Source: an uncultured Gammaproteobacteria bacterium
GTDB taxonomy: Bacteria; Patescibacteriota; Microgenomatia; Daviesbacterales; UBA10151
Length of the DNA: 64,000 nucleotides
Reading direction: 5' to 3'
Assembly (NCBI GenBank): GCA_964360965.1
Contig: CAYHYM010000004.1
Span: forward strand, 660-64,659
A program made the position numbers and the translations under genes. The notes beneath the pieces are model-generated. The model saw only the letters and a list, made by a program, of their open reading frames with translations, was not told the origin of the DNA and made no database searches. This document shows positions 4,562-63,664 of this stretch, piece by piece (the stretch's first letter is position 1; each line of letters opens with the position of its first letter).

Positions 4562-5055
4562 TGATAAAAAAAATAGTTATTGTAATTTTAATAAATGTCT
4601 TTTTGGGATTAGGGACATCTTCTGTCTATGCTCTTCATGTGCCACCCGGCGCTACTTGTAATCCAATAGACCCGGCAGATCATTGTAACATTGGCTATTC
4701 TTGTCTACCGGTAACAGGTACTCCGGGCCACCAATGCTTAAGACCCCAATCCACAGACACCATTGGTAAAATCAGTGCACCATTAGCCATACAAGCTTTG
4801 GGTATAGGTAATATAGGCATCAGCAAATTTTTAAATAATTTAGTCACCCTAATTTATATTTTAGCCACTGTTGTTTTAGTCTTTATGTTTTTATGGGGAT
4901 CTTTGGAGTGGTTAACATCAGGAGGGGATAAGGAAGCTGTAGGAAGAGCCAGAGGCAGGATTATTAATGCCCTGGTGGGAATTATTCTTTTCGGGGTGGC
5001 TTATGCCATACTGCGGCTGTTGGGAACATTTACCGGCTTTACATTTTTCCAATAA
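4561..5055 (+). CDS. VirB2/TrbC-like pilin paralog
   Basis: Signal peptide plus LWGSLEWLTSGGDKEAVGRARGRIINALVGIILFGVAYAIL motif. Confidence 0.55.
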   Translation: MIKKIVIVILINVFLGLGTSSVYALHVPPGATCNPIDPADHCNIGYSCLPVTGTPGHQCLRPQSTDTIGKISAPLAIQALGIGNIGISKFLNNLVTLIYILATVVLVFMFLWGSLEWLTSGGDKEAVGRARGRIINALVGIILFGVAYAILRLLGTFTGFTFFQ

Positions 5056-5056
5056 A

Positions 5057-5806
5057 TTAAGAACCTCCTCCATAACGAGGTCCTTGCCCTCCACCGCCGC
5101 CTCTTCTACCCTTTCCGAAGAATCTGATAACTCTGATAACCAGGTTCATCAAAAATACCGGTATTGCTATAACTGCTACCAAACTGCCTATTACAGCAAG
5201 AATGGCGCCTGCGGATATACCTACAGTCTTTCCTATCTCCACCACCATCTTGGGTACACCACCTGGTGAGTCAGGTGCTATTTTACGGCCTTCTATATCT
5301 TTGATAAATTCAGCCTCATACTCTTTAGCTTCTTGCTCTGTCTCCTGTCTTGCCCGCTCAAATGCCTTTTTATTTTCTTCCTGCTGTTTTGCATCAGCCT
5401 GAGCAGTTTTTTTTGATTGTTCCCAGATTACTCGCTGCTCAGGGGTCATTTTTTCCAGTAGCTCCATTTCATATGGAGTGAGTGTGGGAACCCTTTCAGG
5501 AGTGGTTACCCCTGGCCTTTCTGTTGCTCTGAGTGTGGAAGTTTTTGTTTCCACTATCTGAACACCAGCTGGTTGTTTTGGCGCCTCTCCCACTACTGGT
5601 GCGGGTTGGCTGGTAGTGTCAGCACTAAGATCCAGACAGGCAGCTGAGAAAAATACCAAACCCACCATGGGAGCTAATAAGGCTACTCTTGAAGCCGGGA
5701 GCGCTTTTCTGGTTCTTACCACAATATCATCTGCCGCTACTATGGCGCTGGATGGTTCTATCAACTCATTTAAAACTGCTGGTTCTGTTTCTTTCATATC
5801 ATCCAT
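5057..5806 (-). CDS. membrane-anchored hypothetical protein with Gly-rich C-terminal tail
   Basis: ORF with an N-terminal and a C-terminal TM helix, a charged coiled-coil middle, and a GGGGGQG tail; no recognisable catalytic motif. Confidence 0.35.
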   Translation of the reverse strand: MDDMKETEPAVLNELIEPSSAIVAADDIVVRTRKALPASRVALLAPMVGLVFFSAACLDLSADTTSQPAPVVGEAPKQPAGVQIVETKTSTLRATERPGVTTPERVPTLTPYEMELLEKMTPEQRVIWEQSKKTAQADAKQQEENKKAFERARQETEQEAKEYEAEFIKDIEGRKIAPDSPGGVPKMVVEIGKTVGISAGAILAVIGSLVAVIAIPVFLMNLVIRVIRFFGKGRRGGGGGQGPRYGGGS

Positions 5807-6107
5807 TCTTAGGTCCTTTTAAAGTTTCCAGATAATCTTTTTTAAAATTTTCCAATTCATGCAAAATTTTTGTCTGAAGAGATGGAATCAGACTGCCTAA
5901 CATATTAATTATCACCTTACCGTCTTTCTGCTTAGTAATTTTCCCCAGTTGTTCTGTGGTAAGATCAGCGGAAAGCCTTAATAACACATACTCGCCTATT
6001 TTACTGTTTAAATGCTGCCGCATCTTATCTGTCTCCTCTGTTGATTGAGAGACGGTATTAATATTCAAAAAAATAATTGGATCAAAATCTTTTAGACTAA
6101 TCAACAT
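5799..6107 (-). CDS. hypothetical protein
   Basis: 102-aa ORF whose 5' end overlaps the 3' end of the 5057..5806 gene; no recognisable motif. Confidence 0.3.
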   Translation of the reverse strand: MLISLKDFDPIIFLNINTVSQSTEETDKMRQHLNSKIGEYVLLRLSADLTTEQLGKITKQKDGKVIINMLGSLIPSLQTKILHELENFKKDYLETLKGPKNG

Positions 6108-6186
6108 ATTAATCCTATAGATATATTATACCACAAATTTAGCACTTGACAAATAGATAACTTACTGCATATGATAAAATTAAGAT

Positions 6187-6567
6187 ATGAAAAAAGTTGC
6201 CTCAATTTTCTCTGCCTTTGGTTATCTAATATCTGCAGGAGCAGCTTTTGCTCAAACCATTACCATTGAAAGACCTGAGATCAGCGGCAAAAAGGTGGGC
6301 TTTTTAGATGTCAACCAATTCATCAAAAATGGGGTGACCCTGGCTTTTATTATTGCCCTGGTGATTGTTTTTATTATGCTGGTGTGGGGGTCAATTCAGT
6401 GGATTTTTTCCGGAGGATCAAAGGAGAATCTGGAGGCTGCCAGAAATAGAATCATTCACGCTCTGGTAGGCTTGGCTATTTTGGCGGTGGCTTTTGCCAT
6501 TATTCAGCTTTTTGCCACCTTTGTGGGTGTTAATCTACTTGATCTAAAAGTACCATCTCCAATATAA
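6187..6567 (+). CDS. VirB2/TrbC-like pilin paralog
   Basis: Signal peptide plus MLVWGSIQWIFSGGSKENLEAARNRIIHALVGLAILAVAFAII motif. Confidence 0.55.
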   Translation: MKKVASIFSAFGYLISAGAAFAQTITIERPEISGKKVGFLDVNQFIKNGVTLAFIIALVIVFIMLVWGSIQWIFSGGSKENLEAARNRIIHALVGLAILAVAFAIIQLFATFVGVNLLDLKVPSPI

Positions 6568-6576
6568 TTTTAGAAT

Positions 6577-6861
6577 ATGGGGCCACCTGAAGCTGGTTTA
6601 ACTCAAATTGAAGACACTTTTAAAAATGCCATCTCTGTTTCAGTGGGACTGGCTTTTGTGGCTTTGGTGGTGGTGCTGATCTGGGCAGGCATTAAATTTT
6701 TAACCTCAGGAGGGGAGGCTAAAGCCCTACAGTCTGCCACACAGACCGTCACCTGGGCTCTTCTGGGAATTTTATTTCTGGCCATAGCCTGGCTGGTGTT
6801 GCTGCTGATTAAAATCTTTACCGGAATAGATGTGACAACTTTTAACATTCAGGTTTTATAG
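6577..6861 (+). CDS. VirB2/TrbC-like pilin paralog (divergent)
   Basis: LIWAGIKFLTSGGEAKALQSATQTVTWALLGILFLAIAWLV motif. Confidence 0.5.
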   Translation: MGPPEAGLTQIEDTFKNAISVSVGLAFVALVVVLIWAGIKFLTSGGEAKALQSATQTVTWALLGILFLAIAWLVLLLIKIFTGIDVTTFNIQVL

Positions 6862-11258: not shown

Positions 11259-12266
11259 TTGTATGATCGTGTGAGTATGGAACCGCATCCCATTCCCCAA
11301 AATGTCACCTCGTTTGAGTTTCATCTGGTGGGTGACATGACCTTAAAACAATTTATGTTTTTATCATCAGGTTTGGGGGTATCTTATCTGTTATTTGTTT
11401 TTCTCTCTCCCCAAAACCCGTTTCTGGCCTATCCTTTAATTCTGCTGTTTTCCTTTTTAGGAGTGGCTTTTGCTTTTATGGGCATTGCTGACCGGTCTTT
11501 AGATCATTGGCTTTGGGTTTTCATCAAAGCAGTTTTCTCCCCCACCAAAAGAGTCTGGGGAAAGGCAGGTAAATCGTATGCTCAAAATAACCTGTTTTCC
11601 CAAAGGAGCGCTTTTTTTAACCAGGTAGTCCAAACATCATCCTCCCCTTTTGAGCCAATAACCTCTCCTGTTGCTCAAACAAATGTCCAGCCCCTGCCCA
11701 CAGAAGAGGAGCTGCAAAAAACAGTGACTTTGGCCAGAGAGGCCCAAAGTTTGCAGACTAGAATTATTGAATCAGAAAGACAGCTGGAAAGCATCAAGGT
11801 CACTCCCCAAAATATTTCACCCCAGCAAATTGAGGCAACCTTATCAACCTTACAAAAACTGGTCACTGAAACTTCCGGTATTAAAGAACAACTACTCAGA
11901 GCCACTCACCAAAAAGAGCAGCCAAAGCCTTCTGAAGTCAAAATCACTCCCGCCTCTTTTCAAAGACCAATACAGGCGGTGCTAACTTCCCTGCCCAATG
12001 TGATAAATGGTGTTGTCAAAGATGCTTTGGGCAATTTTTTGGAAGGGGTGGTGGTGGTAATTTATAACAAAGAAGGCCTGCCAGTCAGAGCCTTAAAAAC
12101 CAATAAACTGGGTCAGTTCTCAGGCTCCACCCCCTTGCCAAACAACAGTTACAGAATTGAACTGGAAAAGGATGATCTGTTATTTGATATTTTGCAAATA
12201 GATTTAACAGGCCTGGTTTTACCTGCCATGGAAATTTTATCTAAAAAAAGGGTTTTTCAGACATGA
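11259..12266 (+). CDS. PrgI/VirB3-like T4SS membrane protein with long C-terminal extension
   Basis: N-terminal FEFHLVGDMTLKQFMFLSSGLGVSYLLFVFL followed by a second TM helix, resembling the PrgI/VirB3 family; directly upstream of VirB4. Confidence 0.45.
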   Translation: MYDRVSMEPHPIPQNVTSFEFHLVGDMTLKQFMFLSSGLGVSYLLFVFLSPQNPFLAYPLILLFSFLGVAFAFMGIADRSLDHWLWVFIKAVFSPTKRVWGKAGKSYAQNNLFSQRSAFFNQVVQTSSSPFEPITSPVAQTNVQPLPTEEELQKTVTLAREAQSLQTRIIESERQLESIKVTPQNISPQQIEATLSTLQKLVTETSGIKEQLLRATHQKEQPKPSEVKITPASFQRPIQAVLTSLPNVINGVVKDALGNFLEGVVVVIYNKEGLPVRALKTNKLGQFSGSTPLPNNSYRIELEKDDLLFDILQIDLTGLVLPAMEILSKKRVFQT

Positions 12267-12982
12267 ATACCACCCAGCAACATCTTCAGATGGAGGATAT
12301 AAAAGATGATCTGATGATTTTGAAAAATGGCGGAGCGGCTTTGATTTTACAAAGCTCAGCTTTAAATTTCGGGCTGTTATCAGAGGTTGAACAACACTCA
12401 GTGGTGTTGTCTTTTGCCCAGATGCTCAATTCCCTGTCTTTTCCCATCCAGATTATGATTTATTCCCAAAGGCTCAATATTAACTCATATCTTCATTTGT
12501 TGGAGCGAGCCCGAACAATGCAGAGGAATCCCCTTCTTTCTCAAATGATTGACCGTTATAAAAACTTTGTGACTCAGGTTATTAAAGAAAATGATGTTTT
12601 GGATAAAAAATTTTATGTCATAGCCTATACCTCTTCTTTGGAGATGGGATTTGGTTTTAAAAATAAGGAGGCAAGATTAAAAAGAGCTCAAGCCATACTT
12701 TGGCCAAGAAGGGATCAGCTGATAAGGCAACTGGCCCGAGTGGGGCTAAAAGCAAACCAGCTGACCAGCCTGGAAATGCTGCAGCTTTTATATGATATTT
12801 ATAACGGGGCGCAGCAGGATGTTCTACAAATTCCTCCTGTCAAACTTTCTCCCCCTCCACCTCCCCCAAACCCACCCCGGCCAAATCCAGTTCAAACAGC
12901 AGCTGCGCCACCTTCGCAAACTATTATAAATCAACCTAAAAATCACCCTTTTGTGGTGGAGGAACTGGAGGATAATGTTTAA
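12263..12982 (+). CDS. VirB4-like ATPase, N-terminal domain (separate ORF or frameshifted fragment)
   Basis: Resembles the CagE/TrbE/VirB4 N-terminal domain; Pro-rich C-terminal tail; overlaps the next ORF (ATGTTTAA start/stop overlap). Confidence 0.4.
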   Translation: MNTTQQHLQMEDIKDDLMILKNGGAALILQSSALNFGLLSEVEQHSVVLSFAQMLNSLSFPIQIMIYSQRLNINSYLHLLERARTMQRNPLLSQMIDRYKNFVTQVIKENDVLDKKFYVIAYTSSLEMGFGFKNKEARLKRAQAILWPRRDQLIRQLARVGLKANQLTSLEMLQLLYDIYNGAQQDVLQIPPVKLSPPPPPPNPPRPNPVQTAAAPPSQTIINQPKNHPFVVEELEDNV

Positions 12983-20383: not shown

Positions 20384-20521
20384 ATGCCAAAAAGAACCTA
20401 CCAGCCTAAAAAATTAAAAAGATTAAGAAAACACGGGTTTAGAAGCAGAATGGCAACCCATGATGGTGCTAGAGTTCTAAAAAGAAGAAGAGCCAGAGGT
20501 AGAAAAAGACTAACGGTATAA
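20384..20521 (+). CDS. rpmH: 50S ribosomal protein L34
   Basis: Translates to [45 protein letters not shown]; canonical position upstream of rnpA. Confidence 0.85.
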
Positions 20522-20528
20522 GGTTTTC

Positions 20529-20618
20529 GTCATTCCTGCGAATGCAGGAATCCATTTAACAAAAAACGTAAACCCATGCCGCTCAAGTTAATTGGATCCC
20601 GACATTCGTCGGGATGAC
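20529..20618. repeat. GC-rich MITE/RPE-like palindromic element (family 1), 90 nt, termini GTCATTCCTGCG...CGTCGGGATGAC
   Basis: Terminal hairpins attcctgcGAATgcaggaat and atcccgacATTCgtcgggat; reverse complement shares both termini plus the internal aattgga with the 108-nt element inside tsaD. Confidence 0.8.
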
Positions 20619-20624
20619 ACCGCT

Positions 20625-21032
20625 ATGTTACCTAAAACCAAAAGACTAAATCTCAAAACAGATTTTAAATGGGTGGCCTCTGGTAAAAAAATAGACACTA
20701 AGTTTGTCAGGCTTTTTGTTAAAATGGGAGATCCTTCGACCCATTCGATTAACACTCAGGGTCGTACTGAGTGGAATCGAAGTACGACTCGCTCCGCTCG
20801 CTCAGGACCTTTGGTTGGGATTGCTGTTTCAAGTAAGTCTTTTAAAAAAGCAACTCAGCGCAATAGAGCCAAAAGACTTACCTCTGTCGCACTTGAATCA
20901 CTTTATCCTCTTCTCCCTTCCCGCTTAAATATTGTGGCCCTTCCCAAAACTGCCATAATTGGTGTAAAATCACAAGATGTGTTGTTGGACTTGATGAAAT
21001 GTTATGAAAAAAATACTGATTGGTTTAATTAA
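20625..21032 (+). CDS. rnpA: RNase P protein component with an internal repeat-derived insertion
   Basis: LPKTKRL...FVRLFVK...RNRAKRLTS blocks typical of RnpA. The start was trimmed from 20592, since the first 11 codons lie in the family-1 repeat. About 27 aa inserted (GDPSTHSINTQGRTEWNRSTTRSARSGP). Confidence 0.7.
   Translation: MLPKTKRLNLKTDFKWVASGKKIDTKFVRLFVKMGDPSTHSINTQGRTEWNRSTTRSARSGPLVGIAVSSKSFKKATQRNRAKRLTSVALESLYPLLPSRLNIVALPKTAIIGVKSQDVLLDLMKCYEKNTDWFN
20742..20817. repeat. GC-rich element (family 2, TCCTTCGAC...CGCTCGCTCAGGA) inserted in-frame in rnpA
   Basis: Same ends as the 28-nt copy at 34106..34133; locally GC-rich compared with the flanks. Confidence 0.7.
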
Positions 21033-30736: not shown

Positions 30737-31879
30737 TCAAGCGAGGGATAAATTGGGATCTGCCTGAAGTTTTAAAGGATTTGGGATGGGTTTTTGGAAA
30801 AATCCAGCTGCTGCAATCATGGCTCCGTTATCTGTACACAAGTCTGGTGGAGGAATATATAATTTAATATTTGAATTCAAACTGTCCACTGTAACCTGTA
30901 ACCTGTCAACTAACTTTTTATTTGCAGCCACACCGCCGGCAATCATGATATTTTTCACAGGATGAACTTTTAATGCCTGGATTACTTTTTCTACTAAAGA
31001 TTCAACTATGGTATTTTCAATAGCAGCAGCCAGATCTTGCTTCACCTCCGAGGAGTCAAAGCCCACCTCGGAGGTGTGTACCAGGTTTGCTACTGCAGTT
31101 TTTAAGCCTGAATAAGAGAAATCAAAATCTTTTGATCCCTTCATAGGAATGGGAAGTTTAAATCTATTTGGATTACCTTTTTGAGCCAGTTTGGAAATTT
31201 CCGGTCCTCCTGGATAGGAAAGTCCTAATAATCTGGCACATTTATCAAAGCACTCACCTGCCGCATCATCCCTGGTGCCACCTAAATAATCATACTTGCC
31301 ATGACTGGTAAAAAGCACTAAATCCGTATGCCCACCTGAAACCAGTAAGCCTAAACAAGGAAATACTGGTACTTCACCTCCGGGATGTTCTGTTTGAATC
31401 CAGTTGGCATAAAAGTGGCCAAGTAAATGGTTAACTGGTATTAATGGTTTATTCCAAACTAAGGCTAGAGTTTTGGCTGTTTCTACTCCCACCAAAAGGG
31501 ATCCAATCAGTCCTGGACCGTATGTGACAGCTATGGCATCAATTTTCTTTATTCTGTCATCCCGACGAATGTCGGGATCCAATTCCGAACGTGACTTTGT
31601 TAATTGGATTCTCCTCGAGTCTGAGCGACCTCGGAGTCGAAGACCTGCATTCGCAGGAATGACATCGGGAAAGATTTGACTTAGTGCTTCCTCAATTACC
31701 GGAATAATGCTTTTGATCTGTTCCCTGGCAGCTTGTTCCGGAATAATTCCTCCATATTTGGCTTGTAAATTAGCTGATGATGCTACGACATTGGATAATA
31801 TTTTTACTCCATCTTTATCCTTTATCAATATAGCAACTGCTGTCTCATCGCAACTAGTTTCAATACCGAGTATTATCAT
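30737..31879 (-). CDS. tsaD: tRNA N6-adenosine threonylcarbamoyltransferase TsaD (Kae1/Gcp) with a 36-aa in-frame repeat insertion
   Basis: MIILGIETSCDET...HLLGH...GGVAANK blocks; length about 380 aa against a typical 340. Confidence 0.85.
   Translation of the reverse strand: MIILGIETSCDETAVAILIKDKDGVKILSNVVASSANLQAKYGGIIPEQAAREQIKSIIPVIEEALSQIFPDVIPANAGLRLRGRSDSRRIQLTKSRSELDPDIRRDDRIKKIDAIAVTYGPGLIGSLLVGVETAKTLALVWNKPLIPVNHLLGHFYANWIQTEHPGGEVPVFPCLGLLVSGGHTDLVLFTSHGKYDYLGGTRDDAAGECFDKCARLLGLSYPGGPEISKLAQKGNPNRFKLPIPMKGSKDFDFSYSGLKTAVANLVHTSEVGFDSSEVKQDLAAAIENTIVESLVEKVIQALKVHPVKNIMIAGGVAANKKLVDRLQVTVDSLNSNIKLYIPPPDLCTDNGAMIAAAGFFQKPIPNPLKLQADPNLSLA
31556..31663. repeat. 108-nt family-1 GC-rich MITE/RPE-like element inside tsaD (termini GTCATCCCGACG...CGCAGGAATGAC)
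   Basis: First 29 nt and last 23 nt are identical to the reverse complement of the rpmH-rnpA copy; multiple of 3; encodes ...LDPDIRRDD... in frame. Confidence 0.85.
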
Positions 31880-35562: not shown

Positions 35563-35627
35563 GGTTGGATTGTATCATAAAAGTTTAACTTCTGCTAAAT
35601 TGTTATATTTGTGGAAGCCTACCTGTA

Positions 35628-36068
35628 TTATTCTCCGGCTAATTTAAAGCCCGGCTTAGGGTACCAATCATCAAAAGAAAATATCAAATTTGTTTCAAAC
35701 TTATTGGCAGTTGCAGCCACAATTGCGTCAAAAATAGTATTTTGCTTAGATTGAGACCTTGTTTCAAAAATAATCGCTGCCTTAGTTTGAATTTCTAAGT
35801 TTACGTACTCCACAGTAAAAGCTCCTGCCAGATATTGTTTATTTATTAATTTTGCTTTATCAGGTAGGTTTTTAGCACGAGATAAGGCTGTAATTGTTTC
35901 CAGAATAGCAGTATTAGGATAAATTACTTGAAATCTTTTTAAGTTGAGCCACTGACTGATTCTCTTTGCTTTTTGGTGATTAGCATCTTGCTTATCTGCT
36001 AAAGCTATTAAGGAATCCGCATCTCCTATAATAATATTGTTCACTTTTGTCTTTTCTCTCCACCCCAA
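35628..36068 (-). CDS. PIN-domain (VapC-like) toxin
   Basis: IIGDADSLIAL and DAIVAATA acidic PIN motifs. Confidence 0.55.
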   Translation of the reverse strand: MGWREKTKVNNIIIGDADSLIALADKQDANHQKAKRISQWLNLKRFQVIYPNTAILETITALSRAKNLPDKAKLINKQYLAGAFTVEYVNLEIQTKAAIIFETRSQSKQNTIFDAIVAATANKFETNLIFSFDDWYPKPGFKLAGE

Positions 36069-36325
36069 GCGTAGTAGTCGTGATTTATAGATACATCCGT
36101 AGGAGAACCTTGTTGGCTGGGCATTTGTTCTGCCATCTTAGCCAGATCAAGTAAAGCCTGGGCATTGGATTTAGGGTGATTAATCTCCAAGCCCTTACTC
36201 AGGGCCTCTCTTATAATTTCAGCTTCAGCCTTATTCTTATCTTGAGCTATTAAGCTAATTCTTCTTCTGGTATCATCCGGGATGTGAACACTGATTCTTT
36301 GCATATGTATTACATCATACATCAT
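36041..36325 (-). CDS. ribbon-helix-helix (CopG/VapB-like) antitoxin
   Basis: ISVHIPDDTRRRISLIAQDKNKAEAEIIREAL RHH pattern; overlaps the PIN gene. Confidence 0.5.
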   Translation of the reverse strand: MMYDVIHMQRISVHIPDDTRRRISLIAQDKNKAEAEIIREALSKGLEINHPKSNAQALLDLAKMAEQMPSQQGSPTDVSINHDYYAWGGEKRQK

Positions 36326-36344
36326 ACAAACAGGTTTGTCAAGT

Positions 36345-36540
36345 GCCCAACTTAACTTCAGCTAAAGTGTTGTGTTTATGAAATCCATTAGAGGGGATCG
36401 ACTCAAATAGCTTAATCGACGATATCCGTATTGGATTAAAAGGCATGGCCATAAGTTTTTCCATTTCCACTTCTAATTTTTGATCTACTTTTAAATGGTT
36501 GTTGAGCTTGGAAATATTGAAATCTTCACTTTTGATAAAG
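36345..36540. repeat. partial duplicate of the thpR 3' end (about 196 nt, same orientation as thpR)
   Basis: Near-identical to 41945..42125, including a 75-nt perfect stretch aaaaggcatggccataagtttttccatttccacttctaatttttgatctacttttaaatggttgttgagcttgg. Confidence 0.85.
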
Positions 36541-38321: not shown

Positions 38322-40052
38322 ATGGCATTAAAAAGAACTACCCTAAGGATAGATGAAGACTTAAAAAAAGATACTCAACAGCGAGCCTTAGAGGAGAATA
38401 CCACTCAACAAGAAATTCTCAATAGAGCTTTAAAGAAATATTTAAGAACTGAGGTTCAGAAAGAGCTTGCTAGGGAAACAGTGGCCGAGCCACAGGAAGT
38501 AACTACAAAAAAGGCTAGTTCGAGTAAACCAGCAGATGTAATTGATTTGATATTTAGCTCACTGGATATCGAAGCCAGGGGTTTTATTAAAAAGGGAGAT
38601 TTGATAGATGCCCTTAATTTTAGAGGAATTCTAGAGGATGACATTAGGATTAAAAATGTCATGGAGGCTTTGAGTAAAACTAATAAAGACGATGATATCC
38701 CCCCCCAAACCTTCCGCAGGATTGTTGGGCCGTACATTACATTAATTGAAAAAGCCCTGACTGGTAGTCTGGTTATCCCCGATTTTAAGAATTTCTGTAG
38801 TTTTATTACTAATCTTTATAATCGCACAATTCAAAACAAAGATGGCGAGGTTTCAGATTACATACCTGAGCTAAAAGGAGTTGACCCAAATAACTATGCT
38901 ATTTCCATTTGTACTATAGACGGACAGAGATTTAATTTGGGAGATTACAATACTCCCTATCTAGCCCAATCTACTGCCAAACCCATAAATTATTGTCTGG
39001 CCTTAGAAGAGCACGGCGAAGAAGTAGTTCATAAAAAGATTGGCAGAGAACCTTTAGGCAAAGGTTTAAATCAGTTGACTCTAAACAGTCAAGGATTGCC
39101 GCATAATCCTTTAAATGGTACAGGAGCAATTATGTCGGCCTCCTTGATTGGCCAAGAACTTTCCCTGGAAGACCGTTTTGAACAGGCTTTAAAGAAATGG
39201 AAGTCGCTTTCCGGAGGAATTAATCCTGGATTTTCAAAATCAGCTTACGATTCAGCTAAACATGTTGCGGATAAAGATCTGGCGCTAGCTTATTTTATGA
39301 GATTGAATCAGTTGTTTTCCAAAGGATCAAATTTAGAAGAATATTTGGACTTTCTGTTTAAATGCTTATCTATTGAAACTACCACTGAAGCTCAAGCAAT
39401 TATTGCTGCCACTTTGGCAAACGCCGGAGTTTGTCCGACCAATGGGGAAGCCGTGTTAAAAATGGAGACTACAAAGAATTGTTTATCTTTGATGTATTCC
39501 TGCGGTATGGAAGATTACTCGTCTGAGTTTGCTTTTGCAATAGGACTTCCTGCTAAAAGCGGTATTTCAGGATCGATTATGATAGTTGTGCCTAATGTGA
39601 TGGGAATTGCGATTTATTCTCCTAGGGTTGATAGTAATGGCAATAGTGTTAAAGGATTAGATTTATGTAATAAATTAATCCAGAGATTTAATTTTCATAA
39701 TTACGATAGCTTAACTAAAAAACTGGATAAAATTGATCCCAGGCTTTTGAAAAATGAAAATAAAATGAGGGGCGTGATGGCTGTTTGTACTGCTGCTTCT
39801 CAGGGAGATCTATATGAGATCCAAAGGTTAGAGGCCTCGGGGGTTGCTTTGGATGAAGGTGATTATGATGCCAGAACCGGCATACATCTGGCAGCCTCGG
39901 AAGGTCACGAAGAGGTAGTTCGCTATTTTATTGAAAGAAGAGTGGATATTAACCCTAAAGACCGTTGGGGTGGGACACCTTTAGCTGATGCCATGAGAGG
40001 TAACCACACTGCGGTAATTGAACTGTTGGAGAAAAATGGAGCCAGGCTATGA
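38322..40052 (+). CDS. glsA: glutaminase with N-terminal RHH-like segment and C-terminal ankyrin repeats
   Basis: YIPELKGVDP...GDYNTPYLAQSTAKPINYCLALE...GREPLG serine-dependent glutaminase blocks; C-terminal ANK repeats (GIHLAASEGHEEVVRYFI...GGTPLADAMRGNH). Confidence 0.75.
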   Translation: MALKRTTLRIDEDLKKDTQQRALEENTTQQEILNRALKKYLRTEVQKELARETVAEPQEVTTKKASSSKPADVIDLIFSSLDIEARGFIKKGDLIDALNFRGILEDDIRIKNVMEALSKTNKDDDIPPQTFRRIVGPYITLIEKALTGSLVIPDFKNFCSFITNLYNRTIQNKDGEVSDYIPELKGVDPNNYAISICTIDGQRFNLGDYNTPYLAQSTAKPINYCLALEEHGEEVVHKKIGREPLGKGLNQLTLNSQGLPHNPLNGTGAIMSASLIGQELSLEDRFEQALKKWKSLSGGINPGFSKSAYDSAKHVADKDLALAYFMRLNQLFSKGSNLEEYLDFLFKCLSIETTTEAQAIIAATLANAGVCPTNGEAVLKMETTKNCLSLMYSCGMEDYSSEFAFAIGLPAKSGISGSIMIVVPNVMGIAIYSPRVDSNGNSVKGLDLCNKLIQRFNFHNYDSLTKKLDKIDPRLLKNENKMRGVMAVCTAASQGDLYEIQRLEASGVALDEGDYDARTGIHLAASEGHEEVVRYFIERRVDINPKDRWGGTPLADAMRGNHTAVIELLEKNGARL

Positions 40053-40354
40053 AAAGTGATATTAAGACAACCGGAGTAATGGCGCTTGACTGGGCAGCGG
40101 CTCAGGGAGATTTGCACGAGATTCAAAGGTTAGTCGCATCCGGCGCAGATTTGAACGAAGGTGATTATGATGGGAGAACCGCAATACATCTGGCAGCCTC
40201 GGAAGGACAGGAAGAAATTGTCAGGTATTTAATTGCGAAAGGTGTAAATATTAATCCTAGGGATCGTTGGGGTGGGACACCTTTAGCTGATGCCATGAGA
40301 GGTAACCACACCAAAGTTATAGAGCTTTTGAAAAAACATAATGCACAGAAATAA
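40049..40354 (+). CDS. stand-alone ankyrin-repeat protein, tandem duplicate of the glutaminase ANK module
   Basis: About 70% identical to the last 95 aa of the upstream ORF; ATGA start/stop overlap. Confidence 0.65.
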   Translation: MKSDIKTTGVMALDWAAAQGDLHEIQRLVASGADLNEGDYDGRTAIHLAASEGQEEIVRYLIAKGVNINPRDRWGGTPLADAMRGNHTKVIELLKKHNAQK

Positions 40355-41479: not shown

Positions 41480-41530
41480 CCCAAGTTTAACTTCAGCCAG
41501 AATGTTATGTTTATGGAAGCCATTTTTGTA
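41480..41530. repeat. second short copy of the thpR 3'-terminal sequence
   Basis: tttaacttcagccagaatgttatgtttatggaagcc against the thpR end tttacttcagctaaagtattatgtttgtggaaacc. Confidence 0.55.
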
Positions 41531-41534
41531 GAAA

Positions 41535-41654
41535 TCAAAGTAATTCTTTAAGTTCATCTATGGAAATTTCCACTGACTTTAAAATACTCATTAGAGTTTT
41601 TCTTTTGAGAGCTTTAATGACCTCCTTTGGCTTAACAACTGGAATTTTGGGCAT
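41535..41654 (-). pseudogene. hicA: HicA toxin remnant with internal deletion
   Basis: Translates to MPKIPVVKPKEVIKALKRKTLMSILKSVEISIDELKELL: the N- and C-terminal segments of the intact 74-aa HicA at 63179..63403 are fused and the central GSH region is missing. Confidence 0.55.
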
Positions 41655-41918
41655 TTAAGAAAGAGTTTGCTGGATGGGTATATCAATTGTTGTCATAAAG
41701 CTGGGACCTTTTTCTTCAGGAACTATTTCATTATGTTTTTTTAAACTGGCAATATATACGCTGATAGCATCTTTAACCATCTCCACAGCTTCTTCCAAAC
41801 TGTTACCTTCTGTGACACATCCTGGCAGAGCAGGTACAATCACCACATACCCACCTTCTTCAGCTGGTTCAAAAATAGCAGTATATTTTAAGATTTTTTG
41901 AGAGATTTTCTTAGCCAT
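41655..41918 (-). CDS. hicB: HicB-family antitoxin (orphaned)
   Basis: About 85% identical to the HicB at 63404..63664; UPF0150-like YxxxFEP...GGY..VP..PGC motif. Confidence 0.6.
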   Translation of the reverse strand: MAKKISQKILKYTAIFEPAEEGGYVVIVPALPGCVTEGNSLEEAVEMVKDAISVYIASLKKHNEIVPEEKGPSFMTTIDIPIQQTLS

Positions 41919-41936
41919 GGAGTTATTATAGCATTT

Positions 41937-42503
41937 TCAAACTAACTTTACTTCAGCTAAAGTATTATGTTTGTGGAAACCTTCTTGGGGAACTGATTCA
42001 AACAGTTTAATGGAGGAAATTTTAATGGGATTAAAAGGCATGGCCATAAGTTTTTCCATTTCCACTTCTAATTTTTGATCTACTTTTAAATGGTTGTTGA
42101 GCTTGGCAATGGTGATATGAGGAATGAAACGACGTTCATCTGCTGTGAGCCTTAAAGTGGCCAAGCTATCTTTGATGCGCTCACGAATAAGTAAAATTTT
42201 ATCTATATCCCCTTTGACTCCAATCCAAAGAACTTGAGGATGGTGGAGGTTTGGAAATCCATCAATATAGGCAGGGGTAACTTCAAATGCAGGAATATTC
42301 GCTACAGCATTTCTGATAATTTCAACTAATTTATCCTTTAATCCATCCGGTTGTTCTCCTAAAAAAGCTAAAGTCAGGTGAATTTTGTCTAAATCAGTAA
42401 TTCTTACTTGAGTAATTAATGTATGCAATTTAGCTTGTATAGCTTGAAACTGCAATCTATTCTCTTTCGGAATTTCAAGTGCTATGAAAAACCTTATACC
42501 CAT
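41937..42503 (-). CDS. thpR: RNA 2',3'-cyclic phosphodiesterase / 2'-5' RNA ligase family (ThpR/LigT)
   Basis: Two H-x-T/S-x motifs (HLTLAF and HITIAK) at the characteristic spacing of the 2H phosphoesterase fold. Confidence 0.7.
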   Translation of the reverse strand: MGIRFFIALEIPKENRLQFQAIQAKLHTLITQVRITDLDKIHLTLAFLGEQPDGLKDKLVEIIRNAVANIPAFEVTPAYIDGFPNLHHPQVLWIGVKGDIDKILLIRERIKDSLATLRLTADERRFIPHITIAKLNNHLKVDQKLEVEMEKLMAMPFNPIKISSIKLFESVPQEGFHKHNTLAEVKLV

Positions 42504-57866: not shown

Positions 57867-59647
57867 TAGGTAGCCCTTACTCTTACTTTGGTGGTGACGC
57901 GAAATTTTAAATACTTCCCAAACATCATTGATGTTTGGGCATCAAGGGCTGGGAGGGTGGAGATGGTGACAATGATAATAGGTATCAAAACCCACTGAAT
58001 ATAGGACCATAGTTTTTGTAAGATAGACCAAGACTCCGGCCTTTTGGGAACCGTTTTTTCGTGGACATAGATGGTGGCAAATATTCCCAAAAAGGCGATA
58101 GTTAATATCCAGGAGGAGATAAACGGCAGGTTATAAGAAACTACAGATTGAGCATAGTCAGGATTAATCAATGGAATAAGCAGTCCGGCAAAAGTGACAA
58201 ATAAAGCCAAGATTCCCCAGCGCAAATAACCCCAAACGACAAAAAGCAGTTTATCTGTTTTATCCCAAAAATCCAAATCTTTATTTTTAAAATACTGTTT
58301 AACAATAAAAGGAATGTGTTCTACCCCATAAGCCCAGCGTTTTTGTTGTAAATATTGATTTTGTAGAGTCTTAAATAAAGTGACATCCAAAACCGCATCG
58401 GCGGAGATGGGTAAAAAGTGGGGGATCACTTTGTAGTCTCCTTTAAAATGAAAGTAAGCCTTCCAATAAAATCCGGAATCATCATTAACTTTATCGGGAA
58501 TCCACAGGCCCACATTCAGCAGAGATTTTAGATTAATAGACAAAGAGGCAAAATTCATATATTTATCAGAGCCCACCATCTCTGATAACTGCCAAAATGA
58601 AGTACCTGCTGCCATCAGTCTCATGGGGGTAGGTACCTGCCAATAGTTGTTATGATATAAAAACATTCCGGTGTAGCTTCTTTTATCACGAATGTTGGCC
58701 GGGGTGGACAGATACTTGTGCAGCGCTCCGGCTAAAAATTGAGGATGAATCACAAAATCAGCATCTAAAGTGGTAACAATTACCTGTTCCTCTTTGATGC
58801 CTAATTTTTTAAACTGCTCCACGGCATTATTAATCATGTAATTTCTATTAGTTCCCGGGCCTGGTATTTCTCCAGGTAAACCAAAGGGGTGGATGGTGGT
58901 AAAGACTCCACCGATCTTTTGGCTTAAGTTATTCAAGTAAGTTTGAGTTTTTTTAATTTTTTCCGGATCATTTTGATACTCTCTTTCCTCAAAACCTACT
59001 GCTAAAAATATTTTATCTTTGGGATAATTAGCAGAAACAACGGCATCAAAGACTGGCAGCACCACCTCTAAAGGTTCTTTATAAGTGGGTACGGCAATTA
59101 AATGATAGTAATTTTGCCAATTGTCAGAAAAATCTTTATCTAATTTTTGTAGCCAGTTTTGTTTTTTGGCTTCTTCCATCTTTCTATAACCGATGATGAT
59201 CAAAACTGCTATTTTTAAAGAGCTAATCAGCCAATAAATATCGGCCAAAAGTATCAGATATGCCACTGCAAAAGGTAGAGTAAATGATAACCAGATGGGA
59301 GAGGTGAGGGCAATCCAGGTTAGAGCTCCCGGGAATATCTCTAAAAACCTCTCTACTGTTGTTTCATGTTTTCTGACAAAGTCTTTTTCTAACTTTTCTG
59401 AAAAAACAAAACTTTCTCGCAGCAAATGATGAACGATCATCCCTATACCGGAACCGGTCATGAAGATAGATAACAGAGTGCGGCTGGGGTCACTGATGAT
59501 GATTTCTCCCAAAAAGAGGATTGTCAGTCCGGTTAGTACTAATATTAAACCTAGGACACTGCGGTGTAAGTGCCGTCCTCTTAAGATTACCTCTGATAGG
59601 TAAAAGGAAAGTACGCCACCAAGAATAAAAAAGAGAACGATTCTCAT
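57866..59647 (-). CDS. processive family-2 glycosyltransferase (cellulose/chitin-synthase-like)
   Basis: TM helices flanking a GT2 domain with DAD and QQKRW (QxxRW) motifs. Confidence 0.65.
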   Translation of the reverse strand: MRIVLFFILGGVLSFYLSEVILRGRHLHRSVLGLILVLTGLTILFLGEIIISDPSRTLLSIFMTGSGIGMIVHHLLRESFVFSEKLEKDFVRKHETTVERFLEIFPGALTWIALTSPIWLSFTLPFAVAYLILLADIYWLISSLKIAVLIIIGYRKMEEAKKQNWLQKLDKDFSDNWQNYYHLIAVPTYKEPLEVVLPVFDAVVSANYPKDKIFLAVGFEEREYQNDPEKIKKTQTYLNNLSQKIGGVFTTIHPFGLPGEIPGPGTNRNYMINNAVEQFKKLGIKEEQVIVTTLDADFVIHPQFLAGALHKYLSTPANIRDKRSYTGMFLYHNNYWQVPTPMRLMAAGTSFWQLSEMVGSDKYMNFASLSINLKSLLNVGLWIPDKVNDDSGFYWKAYFHFKGDYKVIPHFLPISADAVLDVTLFKTLQNQYLQQKRWAYGVEHIPFIVKQYFKNKDLDFWDKTDKLLFVVWGYLRWGILALFVTFAGLLIPLINPDYAQSVVSYNLPFISSWILTIAFLGIFATIYVHEKTVPKRPESWSILQKLWSYIQWVLIPIIIVTISTLPALDAQTSMMFGKYLKFRVTTKVRVRAT

Positions 59648-60549
59648 GCCTTAATTATGCCAATTTTGCTGACGTTTTGCCACATCTGATCCACAATTTG
59701 ATCAATTGGTTGATTTTTTATCCGGGCAATTTCTTTAACCACTTCTAAAACATAGGCAGGTTCGTTTCTCTGTCCCCGTTTTGATTGTGGCGGTAAAAAA
59801 GGAGAATCAGTTTCGATGGTAATTTTTTCCAAAGGTAGGATCCTGGCGGCTTCTTGTAGATATTCATTTTGGGGATAGGTGATATTGCCGGCAAAGGAAA
59901 CCAGGAAATTAGTTTGCAGTATGCGGTTGGTAGTTGGTAGTAAGCCACTATAACAGTGGTAAATACCAAAGTAGTCTTTTGTCATCTTCAAGACTTCATC
60001 CCAGGCCGAAGGAGACGAAGTCTCCGCAGGTGGTGAGCCACTCGGCACTGAGCTCACGGCCGAAGTGCCTGTCGAACCGCTACTTTTTGATCTGTCATCC
60101 CGGCAGTGAACAATTAAAGGAAGGTTAAGTTTTTTTGCTAAATCAATTTGAGCTTGGAAAAGCTGCCTTTGTAGGTTTTTAACAATAAACACCTCCGAGG
60201 TGGGCTTTGACTCCCCGGAGGTGGAGAAAGCATAATCCAGGCCGCACTCTCCAACAGCTACTACTTTATCTACATTATCTAAATATATTTTTTCTAAACT
60301 TTTTATATCTTTTTGGATAGATATGTCTAGGTTATCTTTATACTTAACTGCCTCATGAGGATGAATGCCAATCGAAGAATAAAATTTTAATTTGTTAGAA
60401 TTTAACTCTGCTGCGATTTTGGAAGTTTCAACATCTACACCAATATTAATGATAATGCCTACATCAGCATCTAAGGAATGTCTAATCACTTCGTCAAAGT
60501 CTTGTTTAAAACTATCCCAATATAAATGTGCATGAGTATCAATTAACAT
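59644..60549 (-). CDS. tatD: TatD-family metal-dependent DNase with an about 33-aa in-frame low-complexity insertion
   Basis: MLIDTHAHL, VGECGLDY and IVHCRD blocks; the insertion DRSKSSGSTGTSAVSSVPSGSPPAETSSPSAWD is encoded by a GC-rich element. Confidence 0.8.
   Translation of the reverse strand: MLIDTHAHLYWDSFKQDFDEVIRHSLDADVGIIINIGVDVETSKIAAELNSNKLKFYSSIGIHPHEAVKYKDNLDISIQKDIKSLEKIYLDNVDKVVAVGECGLDYAFSTSGESKPTSEVFIVKNLQRQLFQAQIDLAKKLNLPLIVHCRDDRSKSSGSTGTSAVSSVPSGSPPAETSSPSAWDEVLKMTKDYFGIYHCYSGLLPTTNRILQTNFLVSFAGNITYPQNEYLQEAARILPLEKITIETDSPFLPPQSKRGQRNEPAYVLEVVKEIARIKNQPIDQIVDQMWQNVSKIGIIKA
59995..60112. repeat. GC-rich hairpin-rich element inside tatD (family-1-like gtcatccc ends plus a gtcgaaccgct core)
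   Basis: Hairpins ggagacGAAgtctcc and ggtgagc...gctcac; about 62% GC. Confidence 0.7.
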
Positions 60550-63115: not shown

Positions 63116-63178
63116 AGTTTAATTGTAGCTTAAACTCCTATTACTTCAAAGGTTGAGCCCACTGAATTTTTAGAAACC

Positions 63179-63403
63179 TCAAAGTAATTTTTTAAGTTCA
63201 TCAATAGAAATTTCAGCAGATTTTAAAATACTCATTAAAGTTTTTCTTTTGATAACTTTATTATGATAAGCAATAGTGGCTCTGAGAGTTTTATCAGAAT
63301 TGTACATGACATAATGGCTTCCACTAATATGATCTATTATAAAGTCCTTTCTTTGTAGAGCTTTGATAACCTCTTTTGGTTTAACAATCGGAATTTTTGG
63401 CAT
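63179..63403 (-). CDS. hicA: HicA-family toxin
   Basis: MPKIPIVKPKEVIKALQRKDF...GSH... matches the HicA pattern. Confidence 0.65.
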   Translation of the reverse strand: MPKIPIVKPKEVIKALQRKDFIIDHISGSHYVMYNSDKTLRATIAYHNKVIKRKTLMSILKSAEISIDELKKLL

Positions 63404-63664
63404 TTAAGAAGGGGAGGAGATGGGTATATCTATGGTGGTCATAAAGCTGGGCCCTTTTTCTTCAGGGACAGGTTCATGATGTTTTTTCAAACTAGCAATA
63501 TACCCAGTTATAGCATCTTTAACCATCTCTACAGCTTCTTCTAAACTGTCCCCCTCTGTGATACAACCTGGTAGGGCAGGAACATAGACTACATAGCCAC
63601 CTTCTTCAGCTGGTTCAAAAATAGCAGTATATTTTAGAATTTTTTGAGAGATCTTCTTAGTCAT
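63404..63664 (-). CDS. hicB: HicB-family antitoxin
   Basis: Paralog of 41655..41918; immediately upstream of hicA. Confidence 0.6.
   Translation of the reverse strand: MTKKISQKILKYTAIFEPAEEGGYVVYVPALPGCITEGDSLEEAVEMVKDAITGYIASLKKHHEPVPEEKGPSFMTTIDIPISSPS

What the first reader, a model, noticed from the sequence alone, without database searches (positions are those of the whole stretch)
31556..31663. RPE/MITE-like GC-rich palindromic element inserted in-frame in essential tsaD
A 108-nt element (36 codons, about 60% GC in a genome of under 40%) sits inside the TsaD coding sequence and is translated in frame (…ANAGLRLRGRSDSRRIQLTKSRSELDPDIRRDDRIKK…). It has palindromic GTCATCCCGACGaatGTCGGGAT and CCTGCattcGCAGGAATGAC termini. 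Its first 29 nt and last 23 nt are identical to the reverse complement of the copy between rpmH and rnpA (20529..20618), so it is a mobile or mobilisable element family, not a lineage-specific protein segment. In-frame palindromic elements within essential genes are best known from Rickettsia RPEs; their presence here suggests an analogous, apparently undescribed family.
Basis: seen in the sequence. Interest (0 to 1): 0.85.

Follow-up and report, generated by a model that had tools for sequence, protein, structure and literature searches.

The report
Mobile hairpin repeat translated inside TsaD
A 108-base repeat made of DNA hairpins sits in frame inside an essential tRNA-modification gene of an ultra-small groundwater bacterium. 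It is a gene-less miniature of a small nuclease-carrying unit (Ssn family) found in the same community, so these repeats colonise protein-coding genes much as the palindromic elements of Rickettsia do.

Summary
Window 31556-31663 is 108 nt and is read in frame as codons 73-108 of an otherwise intact tsaD.

It is composite. A 75-nt doublet of two inverted hairpins (YGTCAT, 8-bp stem, GAAT loop, ATCCAATTAA) surrounds a short central palindrome. A further 33-nt hairpin-forming insert sits inside one terminus.

The same 75-87-nt element occupies the same codon position in two orthologous TsaD genes. The closest orthologues lack it.

The termini belong to the NTS/SRM hairpin class described in 2025 as the targets of Ssn GIY-YIG single-strand DNA nucleases. 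In low-GC metagenome contigs (L251, L273, L276) the same two termini bracket a 93-aa ssn-like gene. A Daviesbacteria genome and a contig of the window's own sample carry ssn units that share one terminus. The tsaD insert is therefore an ssn-less, MITE/REPIN-like miniature.

Related hairpins lie in frame in pheT, murB, rsmI-, lepB-, femAB- and wzy-like genes and a thiolase gene. AlphaFold2 models the insert as a disordered loop.

"Undescribed" is true only for the coding-sequence, CPR (Candidate Phyla Radiation) aspect. Mobility and translation are inferred.

The parts
30737..31879 (-). tsaD (380 aa), host gene of the element. It is otherwise intact, with the HxxxH and CTDNGAM motifs present.
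31556..31663 (-). Composite 108-nt in-frame insert, codons 73-108: a 75-nt hairpin doublet plus a nested 33-nt insert.
31556..31584 (+). Terminus B: GTCATCCCGACGAATGTCGGGATCCAATT. This is an NTS/SRM-like hairpin with an 8-bp stem and GAAT loop. It is identical to the terminus of the rpmH-rnpA copy and to one end of the ssn units in L251, L273 and L276.
31585..31610 (.). Central part, CCGAACGTGACTTTGTT + AATTGGATT. Together with CCAATT of terminus B it forms the central hairpin CCAATT...AATTGG.
31611..31643 (.). Nested 33-nt hairpin-forming insert (gene orientation TCTTCGACTCCGAGGTCGCTCAGACTCGAGGAG). It is absent from the orthologous copy in L003. It splits terminus A between GCAGG and AATCC. 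No other copy was found.
31644..31663 (-). Terminus A, truncated. It reads GTCATTCCTGCGAATGCAGG on the minus strand. Its 3' shoulder AATCC is displaced by the nested insert.
20529..20618 (+). Second, intergenic copy (90 nt) filling the rpmH-rnpA spacer. It has intact termini A and B, a different core, and stop codons in all six frames.
31043..31076 (.). A different palindromic element, also in frame in tsaD: CACCTCCGAGG-N12-CCTCGGAGGTG with an 11-bp perfect stem. It encodes HTSEVGFDSSEV and lies in another variable loop of TsaD.
60189..60223 (.). Copy of that second palindrome, in frame in a TatD-family gene (59644-60549, minus strand). It is 97% identical over 35 nt.

Best explanation
The insert is a non-autonomous, MITE/REPIN-like miniature of a small IS-like unit. 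In that unit a 93-aa single-domain GIY-YIG nuclease gene (Ssn family) is bracketed by two inverted NTS/SRM-type hairpins. The miniature keeps only the two termini of about 31 nt (YGTCAT, 8-bp stem, 4-nt loop, ATCCAATTAA) and a short central palindrome. Its canonical length is 75 nt.

One copy entered, or was recombined into, the loop between helix alpha1 and the following beta-strand of TsaD. There it is read through as a disordered 25-aa loop. A secondary 33-nt hairpin-forming insertion later split terminus A and added 11 aa. By displacing the C that follows the palindrome, it probably made that terminus unrecognisable to the nuclease.

Shown:
- the anatomy of the element;
- the family relationship and the identity of its ends with ssn units;
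- recurrence in frame in other genes;
- the loop position.

Inferred:
- that the cognate Ssn nuclease, acting on the hairpins in single-stranded DNA, drives dispersal or homogenisation;
- that the insert is translated, and that selection in an essential gene keeps only stop-free, frame-preserving copies.
For: 1. Ends identical to ssn units. In L251, L273 and L276 an ssn-like ORF (PF01541, 57.6 bits) lies between GTCATCCCGACGAATGTCGGGATCCAATTAA and ..GTTAATTGGATTCCTGCATTCGCAGGAATGAC. These are the same two termini as in the window copies. A Daviesbacteria MAG (L277) has an ssn unit with terminus A, a 71-nt doublet and a solo terminus B within 11 kb. A contig from the window's own sample (L279) has ssn flanked by terminus A, plus a 75-nt doublet whose hairpin is within 1 mismatch of the Neisseria NTS consensus.
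2. All ten ssn-like ORFs found in 2.3 Mb of hairpin-selected loci have GTCAT hairpins within 400 nt. This matches PMC11893778, where 71% of ssn homologues have SRMs nearby.
3. The GTC upstream of the palindrome and the C after it, which matter for SsnA cleavage and binding, are conserved in termini A and B.
4. Stem positions co-vary: 16 different stems, and 423 of 577 GTCAT-N16-ATC sites are fully paired against 0.1% in the null.
5. The orthologous tsaD of L003 has the 75-nt form at the same codon and L004 an 87-nt form. Element DNA is 83% identical (third codon positions 80%) against 66% (44%) for the rest of the gene. Pressure on the element is therefore at the DNA level, or it is younger than the gene divergence.
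6. In-frame copies occur in pheT, murB, rsmI-like, signal-peptidase, thiolase, Wzy-like and FemAB-like genes.
7. The intragenic copies are stop-free in the frame used, whereas the intergenic window copy has stops in all six frames.
8. In the AlphaFold2 model residues 74-106 have pLDDT below 50 and are coil between helix 47-69 and strand 115-120. The rest of the model is confident (pTM 0.82). In the PDB alignment about 43 residues replace 6.
Against: - No ssn gene lies in the 64-kb window. L279 cannot be assigned to the same genome, because tetranucleotide correlation does not discriminate.
- The window's hairpins fail the published SRM search pattern (0 hits) and differ from the NTS consensus at 4 of 28 positions. 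The paper reports that changing the stem while keeping the hairpin abolishes SsnA activity. A cognate, co-evolved nuclease therefore has to be assumed.
- Ssn is only known as a nuclease. No strand-transfer or insertion activity has been shown, and the paper itself only hypothesises an IS-like nature.
- No target-site duplication and no true empty site were found.
- The ssn unit sits in the same dnaK-dnaJ spacer in two genomes. That looks resident rather than hopping.
- Translation of the insert is not shown. Length in multiples of 3 is also common among intergenic doublets (14 of 22), so it is weak evidence of selection.
Confidence: 0.72

Rival explanations
1. REP/REPIN-RAYT system. The hairpin doublets are REPINs dispersed by a Y1 (HUH) RAYT transposase, and the ssn association is incidental.
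For: - The architecture (two inverted hairpins plus a spacer, a conserved 5' motif and an orientation) is that of a REPIN.
- A RAYT-like ORF in L129 has GTCAT hairpins on both sides.
- A Y1_Tnp gene lies 1.8 kb from the ssn unit in L278.
Against: - The L129 RAYT is also flanked by classical GTAG REPs, which are the likelier partners.
- The L278 Y1_Tnp has no GTCAT hairpin within 1 kb.
- Only one RAYT-like hit was found in 2 Mb of hairpin-selected loci, against ten ssn ORFs that are all hairpin-flanked.
- The 5' motif is GTCAT, not GTAG.
Confidence: 0.1
2. An ancient, now inert insertion. One insertion in an ancestor of a TsaD subgroup was inherited vertically. The similarity to other copies is a relic and the element no longer moves.
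For: - The same codon position and the same flanks (AFP[DN] ... RIK[KN]IDAIAV) are seen in P0001, P0024, P0025 and P0004.
- Terminus A of the window copy is disrupted by the nested insert.
- No filled/empty polymorphism was seen.
Against: - The element is far better conserved than synonymous sites of the gene (80% against 44% at third positions).
- Terminus B is identical between the two window copies but differs from the orthologous copy by compensatory changes (CCCGAC/GTCGGG against CCCCG/CGGGG). That implies within-genome homogenisation or re-insertion.
- The nearest orthologues, P0002 and P0007, lack it, and loop types are scattered over the TsaD tree.
Confidence: 0.12
3. The segment is removed before the protein functions, like an intron or intein, so it is not really part of TsaD.
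For: It is a structured, GC-rich segment in an essential gene. CPR genomes are known for introns in rRNA and tRNA genes (titles listed).
Against: - No Rfam family, including group I and II introns, matches anywhere in the window.
- 36 aa is far too short for an intein.
- Every intragenic copy examined is stop-free in the host frame, whereas the window's intergenic copy has stops in all six frames.
Confidence: 0.03
4. A recruited function. The hairpins are kept in tsaD and other genes because they serve the host. They could be Ssn-dependent marks that control recombination of incoming DNA at these loci, mRNA structures that slow translation, or an Arg-rich loop useful for tRNA binding.
For: - SsnA with NTS restricts transformation in Neisseria.
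- TsaD loop types look exchanged like cassettes between close relatives.
- The element is conserved above the neutral level.
- The encoded peptide is strongly basic.
Against: - No direct evidence was obtained.
- The closest orthologues manage without it.
- The modelled loop is disordered.
- Inserts of unrelated sequence occupy the same loop in other orthologues. That fits tolerance better than function.
Confidence: 0.08

Closest known systems
NTS / SRM hairpin repeats with Ssn GIY-YIG ssDNA nucleases (Neisseria dRS3/NTS; PMC11893778, Nat Commun 2025)
   Same: - Same hairpin plan: CGTCAT, palindrome ATTCC...GGAAT, C, with the orientation set by the flanks.
- Same gene association: a single-domain GIY-YIG gene of about 93 aa bracketed by the hairpins.
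- A hairpin within 1 mismatch of the NTS consensus occurs in a contig of the same sample.
- The CPR protein is 60% identical to a hairpin-flanked homologue from a Syntrophaceae MAG (L186).
   Different: - The window's two stems (TTCCTGC/GCAGGAA and TCCCGAC/GTCGGGA) fall outside the published NTS and SRM search patterns.
- The host is CPR/Patescibacteria, which the paper does not mention.
- The repeats are organised as 66-108-nt inverted doublets sharing both ends with the ssn unit.
- They lie in frame inside conserved genes, which the paper does not describe.
Rickettsia palindromic elements (RPE)
   Same: Both are short palindromic repeats that invade coding and non-coding regions; 85 of 728 RPEs lie in ORFs in R. 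felis (PMC1166351). Both are read in frame and are tolerated in essential genes. Both occur in small genomes of host-dependent bacteria.
   Different: The phylum differs, and no sequence comparison with RPE consensus sequences was possible here. These elements are shorter (75 nt against roughly 100-150 nt, the latter from memory). Here an associated gene with the same termini was identified. PMC11893778 lists Rickettsia among SRM-rich genomes, so a real relationship is possible but untested.
REPIN-RAYT systems (REP doublets and a domesticated Y1 transposase)
   Same: Both have a non-autonomous inverted doublet of protein-recognised hairpins, together with a small hairpin-flanked enzyme gene that stays at one locus (dnaK-dnaJ spacer in two genomes).
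   Different: The enzyme is a GIY-YIG nuclease, not a HUH/Y1 transposase. The 5' motif is GTCAT, not GTAG. These elements are not restricted to extragenic sites.
Classical bacterial MITEs (for example Neisseria Correia elements)
   Same: Both have terminal inverted repeats of about 31 nt, a small size, many copies and a longer partner with the same ends.
   Different: No target-site duplication was found. The partner encodes no DDE transposase. Each inverted repeat is itself a hairpin.

Membership tests
NTS/SRM repeats (Ssn-related motifs) | Matches the NTS consensus CGTCATTCCCGCGMAVGCGGGAATCYRG with at most 1 mismatch | tested here: not met
   Terminus A with its flanks (CGTCATTCCTGCGAATGCAGGAATCCAT) has 4 mismatches, two of them a compensatory C:G to T:A pair. 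Terminus B has more. A hairpin in the same-sample contig L279 (3485-3507) does meet it, with 1 mismatch.
NTS/SRM repeats (Ssn-related motifs) | Matches the degenerate SRM pattern HGTCWYN(0-2)YYVSBRHN(0-5)WNVSBRGN(0-2)RNCYNB | tested here: not met
   There are 0 hits in the window (0.14 expected by chance), and the failure is at stem positions only. The orthologous tsaD copy in L004 and a hairpin at L003 131-159 do match.
NTS/SRM repeats (Ssn-related motifs) | Oriented hairpin with conserved GTC upstream of the palindrome and C directly after it | tested here: met
   The sequences show GTC-ATTCCTGC GAAT GCAGGAAT-C and GTC-ATCCCGAC GAAT GTCGGGAT-C. Folding is and covariation.
NTS/SRM repeats (Ssn-related motifs) | The same hairpins flank a single-domain GIY-YIG (ssn) gene | tested here: met
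   Termini A and B bracket ssn-like ORFs in L251, L273 and L276. Terminus A flanks ssn in L277 (Daviesbacteria) and in L279-L281 (same sample). No ssn lies within the window itself.
NTS/SRM repeats (Ssn-related motifs) | Cleaved as single-stranded DNA by the cognate Ssn | not testable with these tools
   This needs biochemistry.
Ssn nuclease family (cd10448, GIY-YIG_unchar_3) | Partner protein assigned to CDD cd10448 or homologous to N. meningitidis SsnA | tested here: inconclusive
   The protein has a Pfam GIY-YIG domain (57.6 bits). It is 60% identical to a hairpin-flanked homologue from a Syntrophaceae MAG (L186) and has 7929 homologues. Neither CDD nor the SsnA sequence was available.
Rickettsia palindromic elements | In-frame insertion in protein-coding genes, in loops compatible with the fold | tested here: met
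Rickettsia palindromic elements | Sequence similarity to the RPE family consensus sequences or HMMs | not tested
   No RPE sequences or models were at hand.
MITE (classical) | Terminal inverted repeats shared with a longer autonomous element | tested here: met
   About 31 nt are shared at each end with the ssn units.
MITE (classical) | Target-site duplication | tested here: not met
   The flanks of eight copies show only T|GTCAT...ATGAC|A, with no direct repeat.
REP/REPIN-RAYT | A RAYT (Y1 transposase) gene flanked by the same hairpins, and a GTAG-type 5' motif | tested here: not met
   There is one ambiguous case (L129, with GTAG REPs also present). The Y1_Tnp of L278 is not flanked. The motif here is GTCAT.

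The most novel reading that the evidence does not exclude
Hairpin-ssn-hairpin units are genuine mobile or recombinogenic elements. Their gene-less doublets and solo hairpins systematically colonise surface loops of conserved, essential proteins across CPR bacteria. They are homogenised within each genome and promote cassette-like exchange of loop segments between lineages. On this reading they would be a general source of protein-loop variation in these tiny genomes, and Rickettsia RPEs would be members of the same Ssn-linked superfamily.
Probability: 0.3. Interest if true: 0.8.

Novelty: new variant of a known kind. Interest (0 to 1): 0.62.

Why it matters
The Ssn/NTS system was described only in 2025, and its authors left open whether NTS-ssn-NTS is a mobile element. 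The case here supplies the comparative signature of one. Gene-less miniatures with the same two ends are dispersed between genes and inside them, in a phylum not considered before.

It also shows that in-frame palindromic colonisation of essential genes, long treated as a Rickettsia peculiarity, recurs in CPR bacteria. It names a candidate enzyme for this. That makes the old question of how such elements spread testable with one small protein and two oligonucleotides.

There is a practical side. These inserts inflate and diversify CPR proteins at predictable loops. They break assemblies and generate spurious hypothetical ORFs such as VIPA.AGI and LD..R..DD.

Tried and rejected
- RAYT hypothesis. 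A tblastn search with an E. coli RAYT sequence written from memory found one hit in 2 Mb (L129). Its flanks also carry classical GTAG REPs, so it is not informative.
- Published SRM pattern. It gave 0 hits in the window. I kept this as a failed membership test rather than explaining it away.
- Length as evidence of translation. I expected multiples of 3 to mark intragenic copies, but 14 of 22 intergenic doublets are also multiples of 3. The argument was dropped, and only the stop-codon contrast was kept.
- TsaD phylogeny, to decide between inheritance and re-insertion. The neighbour-joining tree of 120 orthologues is star-like. It shows scattered loop types but cannot settle the question.
- Same genome as the ssn contig. 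Tetranucleotide correlation is 0.92-0.98 for all CPR loci and does not discriminate.
- Other copies of the nested 33-nt piece. None were found in any sequence held, so its origin is open.
- Plasmid collection. A blastn search with the 75-nt element gave no match.
- Literature. Searches for the translated peptides (VIPAKAGIQ and similar), and for palindromic, MITE or in-frame elements in CPR, found nothing relevant.
- Solved structures and NCBIfam. They gave no informative match for the ssn-like protein.
- Rfam. There was no match in the window.
Full report
**1. The observation**

Window 31556-31663 is 108 nt. It lies in a 380-aa ORF on the minus strand (30737-31879), starts in codon phase 0 and encodes VIPANAGLRLRGRSDSRRIQLTKSRSELDPDIRRDD, codons 73-108. 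The ORF is TsaD: Pfam PF00814 on all homologues and E 3e-77 to Salmonella TsaD 3ZET_B.

A second copy lies at 20529-20618 in the opposite orientation. It fills the spacer between rpmH (20384-20521) and rnpA (20625-21032).

Two figures in the finding are off:
- The element is 51.9% G+C, not about 60%. The window is 39.3%.
- The first 29 nt match the other copy, but only the last 20 nt do, not 23.

The terminus pattern occurs 4 times in the window against 0.21 expected, and none of 100 shuffles reaches 4. Folded as single-stranded DNA, the copies form a hairpin at each end plus a central one, with z-scores of -3.0 to -4.9.

**2. Anatomy**

I fetched DNA for four orthologous tsaD genes and compared the site.
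- The orthologue in L003 (protein P0024) has, at exactly the same codon position, a 75-nt element: GTCATTCCTGCGAATGCAGGAATCCAATTAACAAAGTCTGGTTCGGAATTGGATCCCCGTCTACGCGGGGATGAC.
- The window copy is this element plus 33 extra nucleotides (window 31611-31643) inserted between GCAGG and AATCC of one terminal hairpin.
- The orthologue in L004 (P0025) has an 87-nt version, with a 16-nt perfect palindrome inside the same hairpin.

The canonical unit is therefore 75 nt. It has terminus A (GTCATTCCTGCGAATGCAGGAATCCAATTAAC), a short core, and terminus B in inverse orientation (GTCATCCCGACGAATGTCGGGATCCAATT...). The two termini are imperfect inverted repeats of about 31 nt that differ by compensatory changes in the stem. 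I found no other copy of the nested 33-nt piece.

**3. Position in the protein**

In the alignment to solved TsaD, about 43 query residues (69-111) replace six residues (66-71) of the Salmonella protein.

An AlphaFold2 model built on 50 homologues is confident overall (pLDDT 83, pTM 0.82). Residues 74-106 have pLDDT below 50 and are coil, between helix 47-69 and strand 115-120. So the insert is an extruded, probably disordered loop. All invariant TsaD residues are present.

From memory, that helix is part of the TsaB interface. I could not test whether the loop interferes with it.

**4. Not a private feature, and not simple inheritance**

Among 120 orthologues (323-417 aa) the extra length sits in three or four loops. 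Many of the inserts read like translated palindromes.
- The same site after ..AFP[DN] carries the GTCAT element in P0001, P0024 and P0025, a shortened one in P0004, a version with different stems in P0058, and unrelated short inserts in others.
- The closest orthologues, P0002 and P0007 (75% nucleotide identity), lack it.
- Between the window and L003 the element is 83% identical (third codon positions 80%). The rest of the gene is 66% identical (third positions 44%).
- Terminus B is identical in the two window copies, but differs from the orthologous copy by paired substitutions.
- A neighbour-joining tree is star-like. It shows identical loop types scattered across the tree, and sister sequences with different loops.

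Together these results argue against neutral vertical inheritance. They favour DNA-level constraint, homogenisation within genomes, or repeated insertion or exchange at this loop. I cannot say which.

**5. What the hairpins are**

The hits span many phyla, including two Daviesbacteria (CPR) genomes, and are usually followed by RATCCAG.

This recalled the Neisseria dRS3 repeat. The literature search led to PMC11893778. That paper:
- defines the NTS (CGTCATTCCCGCGMAVGCGGGAATCYRG) and the broader Ssn-related motifs (SRM);
- shows they flank genes for small single-domain GIY-YIG proteins (Ssn) across bacteria;
- shows that SsnA binds and cuts the hairpin only as single-stranded DNA;
- reports that the three bases upstream of the palindrome matter for cleavage, and the C after it for binding;
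- reports that the system restricts transformation;
- notes that NTS-ssnA-NTS looks like an insertion sequence.

It mentions neither CPR nor in-frame or intragenic copies.

The window's termini keep the GTC upstream and the C downstream. They fail both published search patterns because of their stems. Related copies (L004, L003 131-159, L279 3485-3507) do satisfy those patterns.

**6. The partner**

A scan of metagenome contigs for the exact 25-nt terminus B gave 31 loci, with GC from 0.35 to 0.72.
- In three low-GC loci (L251, L273, L276), terminus B and terminus A bracket a 93-aa ORF in units of 376-450 nt. The unit ends are identical to the ends of the window's intergenic copy over 31 nt on one side and 25 nt on the other, with GTTAA[T/A]T before it.
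- The ORF has a GIY-YIG catalytic domain (PF01541, 57.6 bits). It is 60% identical to a hairpin-flanked homologue from a Syntrophaceae MAG (L186).
- It has 7929 homologues at E below 1e-10. The closest named ones come from Candidatus Daviesbacteria, and most sit on contigs of about 1 kb.
- All ten ssn-like ORFs in the loci I held have GTCAT hairpins within 400 nt.
- A Daviesbacteria MAG (L277) has, within 11 kb, an ssn unit with terminus A, a 71-nt doublet and a solo terminus B.
- A 10-kb contig from the window's own sample and assembly (L279) carries an ssn gene, 89% identical to the L273 protein, flanked by terminus A, plus a 75-nt doublet. Its GC is 0.396 and its coverage 3, against 4 for the window's contig in that assembly. 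The window has no dnaK, so L279 could belong to the same genome. Composition cannot prove it.

The tsaD insert is thus an ssn-less miniature of such a unit. This is the relationship of a MITE to its IS, or of a REPIN to its RAYT locus.

**7. Recurrence in coding sequences**

Doublets or solo hairpins of this family lie in frame, with long ORF on both sides, in the following genes:

| Gene | Locus |
|---|---|
| pheT | L254 (same sample as the window) |
| Wzy-like membrane protein, full 75-nt doublet | L260 (same sample as the window) |
| rsmI-like methylase | L256 |
| thiolase | L264/L275 |
| signal peptidase | L265 |
| FemAB-like protein | L213 |
| murB | L003 94-158 |

The intragenic copies are open in the frame used, while the window's intergenic copy has stops in all six frames. 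Multiples of three are also common among intergenic doublets (14 of 22), so I do not use length as evidence.

**8. Mechanism and rivals**

My best reading (0.72) is an Ssn-linked, non-autonomous hairpin doublet tolerated as a disordered loop of TsaD. A second small insertion has crippled one of its termini.

The role of Ssn in spreading or homogenising the copies is inferred, and translation is not demonstrated. No target-site duplication or empty site was seen. The ssn unit occupies the same dnaK-dnaJ spacer in two genomes, which resembles a resident, RAYT-like gene more than a hopping IS.

Rivals:
- A RAYT-driven REPIN system has weak support: one ambiguous RAYT, and no flanked Y1 gene in CPR loci.
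- An inert ancient insertion is contradicted.
- Removal at the RNA or protein level has no support.
- A recruited host function is possible but untested.

**9. Comparison with known systems, and novelty**

- In how it behaves in a protein, the element is closest to Rickettsia RPEs (PMC1166351).
- In its hairpins and partner gene, it is closest to the NTS/SRM-Ssn system.
- In population structure, it is closest to REPIN-RAYT.

It is not a strict member of NTS or SRM as published (patterns not met). It is not an RPE by lineage, and sequence was not tested. It is not a classical MITE, having no target duplication and no DDE partner.

I rate it a new variant of a known kind. The new points are the CPR host, the doublet that shares both ends with an ssn unit, and the recurrent in-frame colonisation of essential genes.

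Noticed in passing
window 31036-31080 and 60186-60230; L271 704-741: There is a second, unrelated palindromic element of about 35 nt, CACCTCCGAGG-N12-CCTCGGAGGTG. One copy is in frame in tsaD (HTSEVGFDSSEV) and one is in frame in a TatD-family gene (STSGESKPTSEV). They are 97% identical, and a third copy (94%) lies in another low-GC contig. Its arms contain a perfect Shine-Dalgarno sequence (GGAGGTG) and its complement (CACCTCC).
   Followed up: partly
window 31361-31399 (tsaD codons 161-173): The loop IQTEHPGGEVPVF is encoded by ..CATCCCGGAGGTGAAG.., which looks like a single arm of the second palindrome. Orthologues have LRGE...HLGG or EHLGGEV at this loop, which is the same palindrome read in other frames or as a single arm.
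   Followed up: partly
120 TsaD orthologues (P0001-P0120): Length varies from 323 to 417 aa, and almost all of the variation lies in three or four loops. A handful of discrete loop sequences (SLQVSGYSGQEI, AINDSRLTINDI, SLRLASLAQGSSIEL, QAFPN plus an insert) recur across a star-like tree. Close sisters carry different loops (P0012/P0015, P0021/P0055, P0051/P0085, P0068/P0078). This suggests cassette-like exchange.
   Followed up: partly
window 20625-21032 (rnpA), hairpin 20753-20773: RnpA is 135 aa against a Pfam profile of 109. It contains an odd segment, GDPSTHSINTQGRTEWNRSTTRSARSG, with a 7-bp perfect hairpin (CACTCAG-N7-CTGAGTG). This may be another in-frame insert.
   Followed up: no
window 59644-60549 (TatD family): Besides the palindrome, the protein has a Ser/Pro/Thr-rich segment, RSKSSGSTGTSAVSSVPSGSPPAETSSPSAW. 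It is 301 aa against a profile of 253.
   Followed up: no
window 20596-20627: The intergenic copy ends 6 nt before the rnpA start codon. Its terminal GGGATGAC may therefore supply the ribosome-binding region, and its hairpins may act as a terminator or attenuator between rpmH and rnpA.
   Followed up: no
window 35581-36523, 41483-42118, 63166-63683; 39748-40339; 4090-6770: Several diverged direct repeats were reported by the repeat finder. They include segments of 175-290 nt at 76-86% identity and four copies of 39-41-nt segments at 4.1-6.8 kb. These probably reflect paralogous genes or tandem duplications.
   Followed up: no
L260 (same sample), 503-aa Wzy-like ORF: The same protein that carries the 75-nt doublet also contains VIARNEVTKQSVSLARSPRHVPERYMARDDV. 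This is the translation of yet another common hairpin repeat type (GTCATTGCGAGG...).
   Followed up: no
L278 10001-10282 and L279 7377-7658: The ssn gene sits in the dnaK-dnaJ spacer in two different CPR genomes. L278 also has a Y1_Tnp gene at 12132-12782 that is not flanked by GTCAT hairpins.
   Followed up: partly
L129 3800-5100: A RAYT-like gene in a Poriferihabitaceae MAG is flanked on both sides by a mosaic of classical GTAG REPs and GTCAT (NTS-like) hairpins. Two hairpin repeat systems are interleaved at one locus.
   Followed up: partly
L246-L276: The exact 25-nt terminus B occurs in contigs from 35% to 72% G+C. The hairpin sequence is thus conserved to the base across very different genomic backgrounds. 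This points to strong protein-recognition constraint or to horizontal spread.
   Followed up: partly
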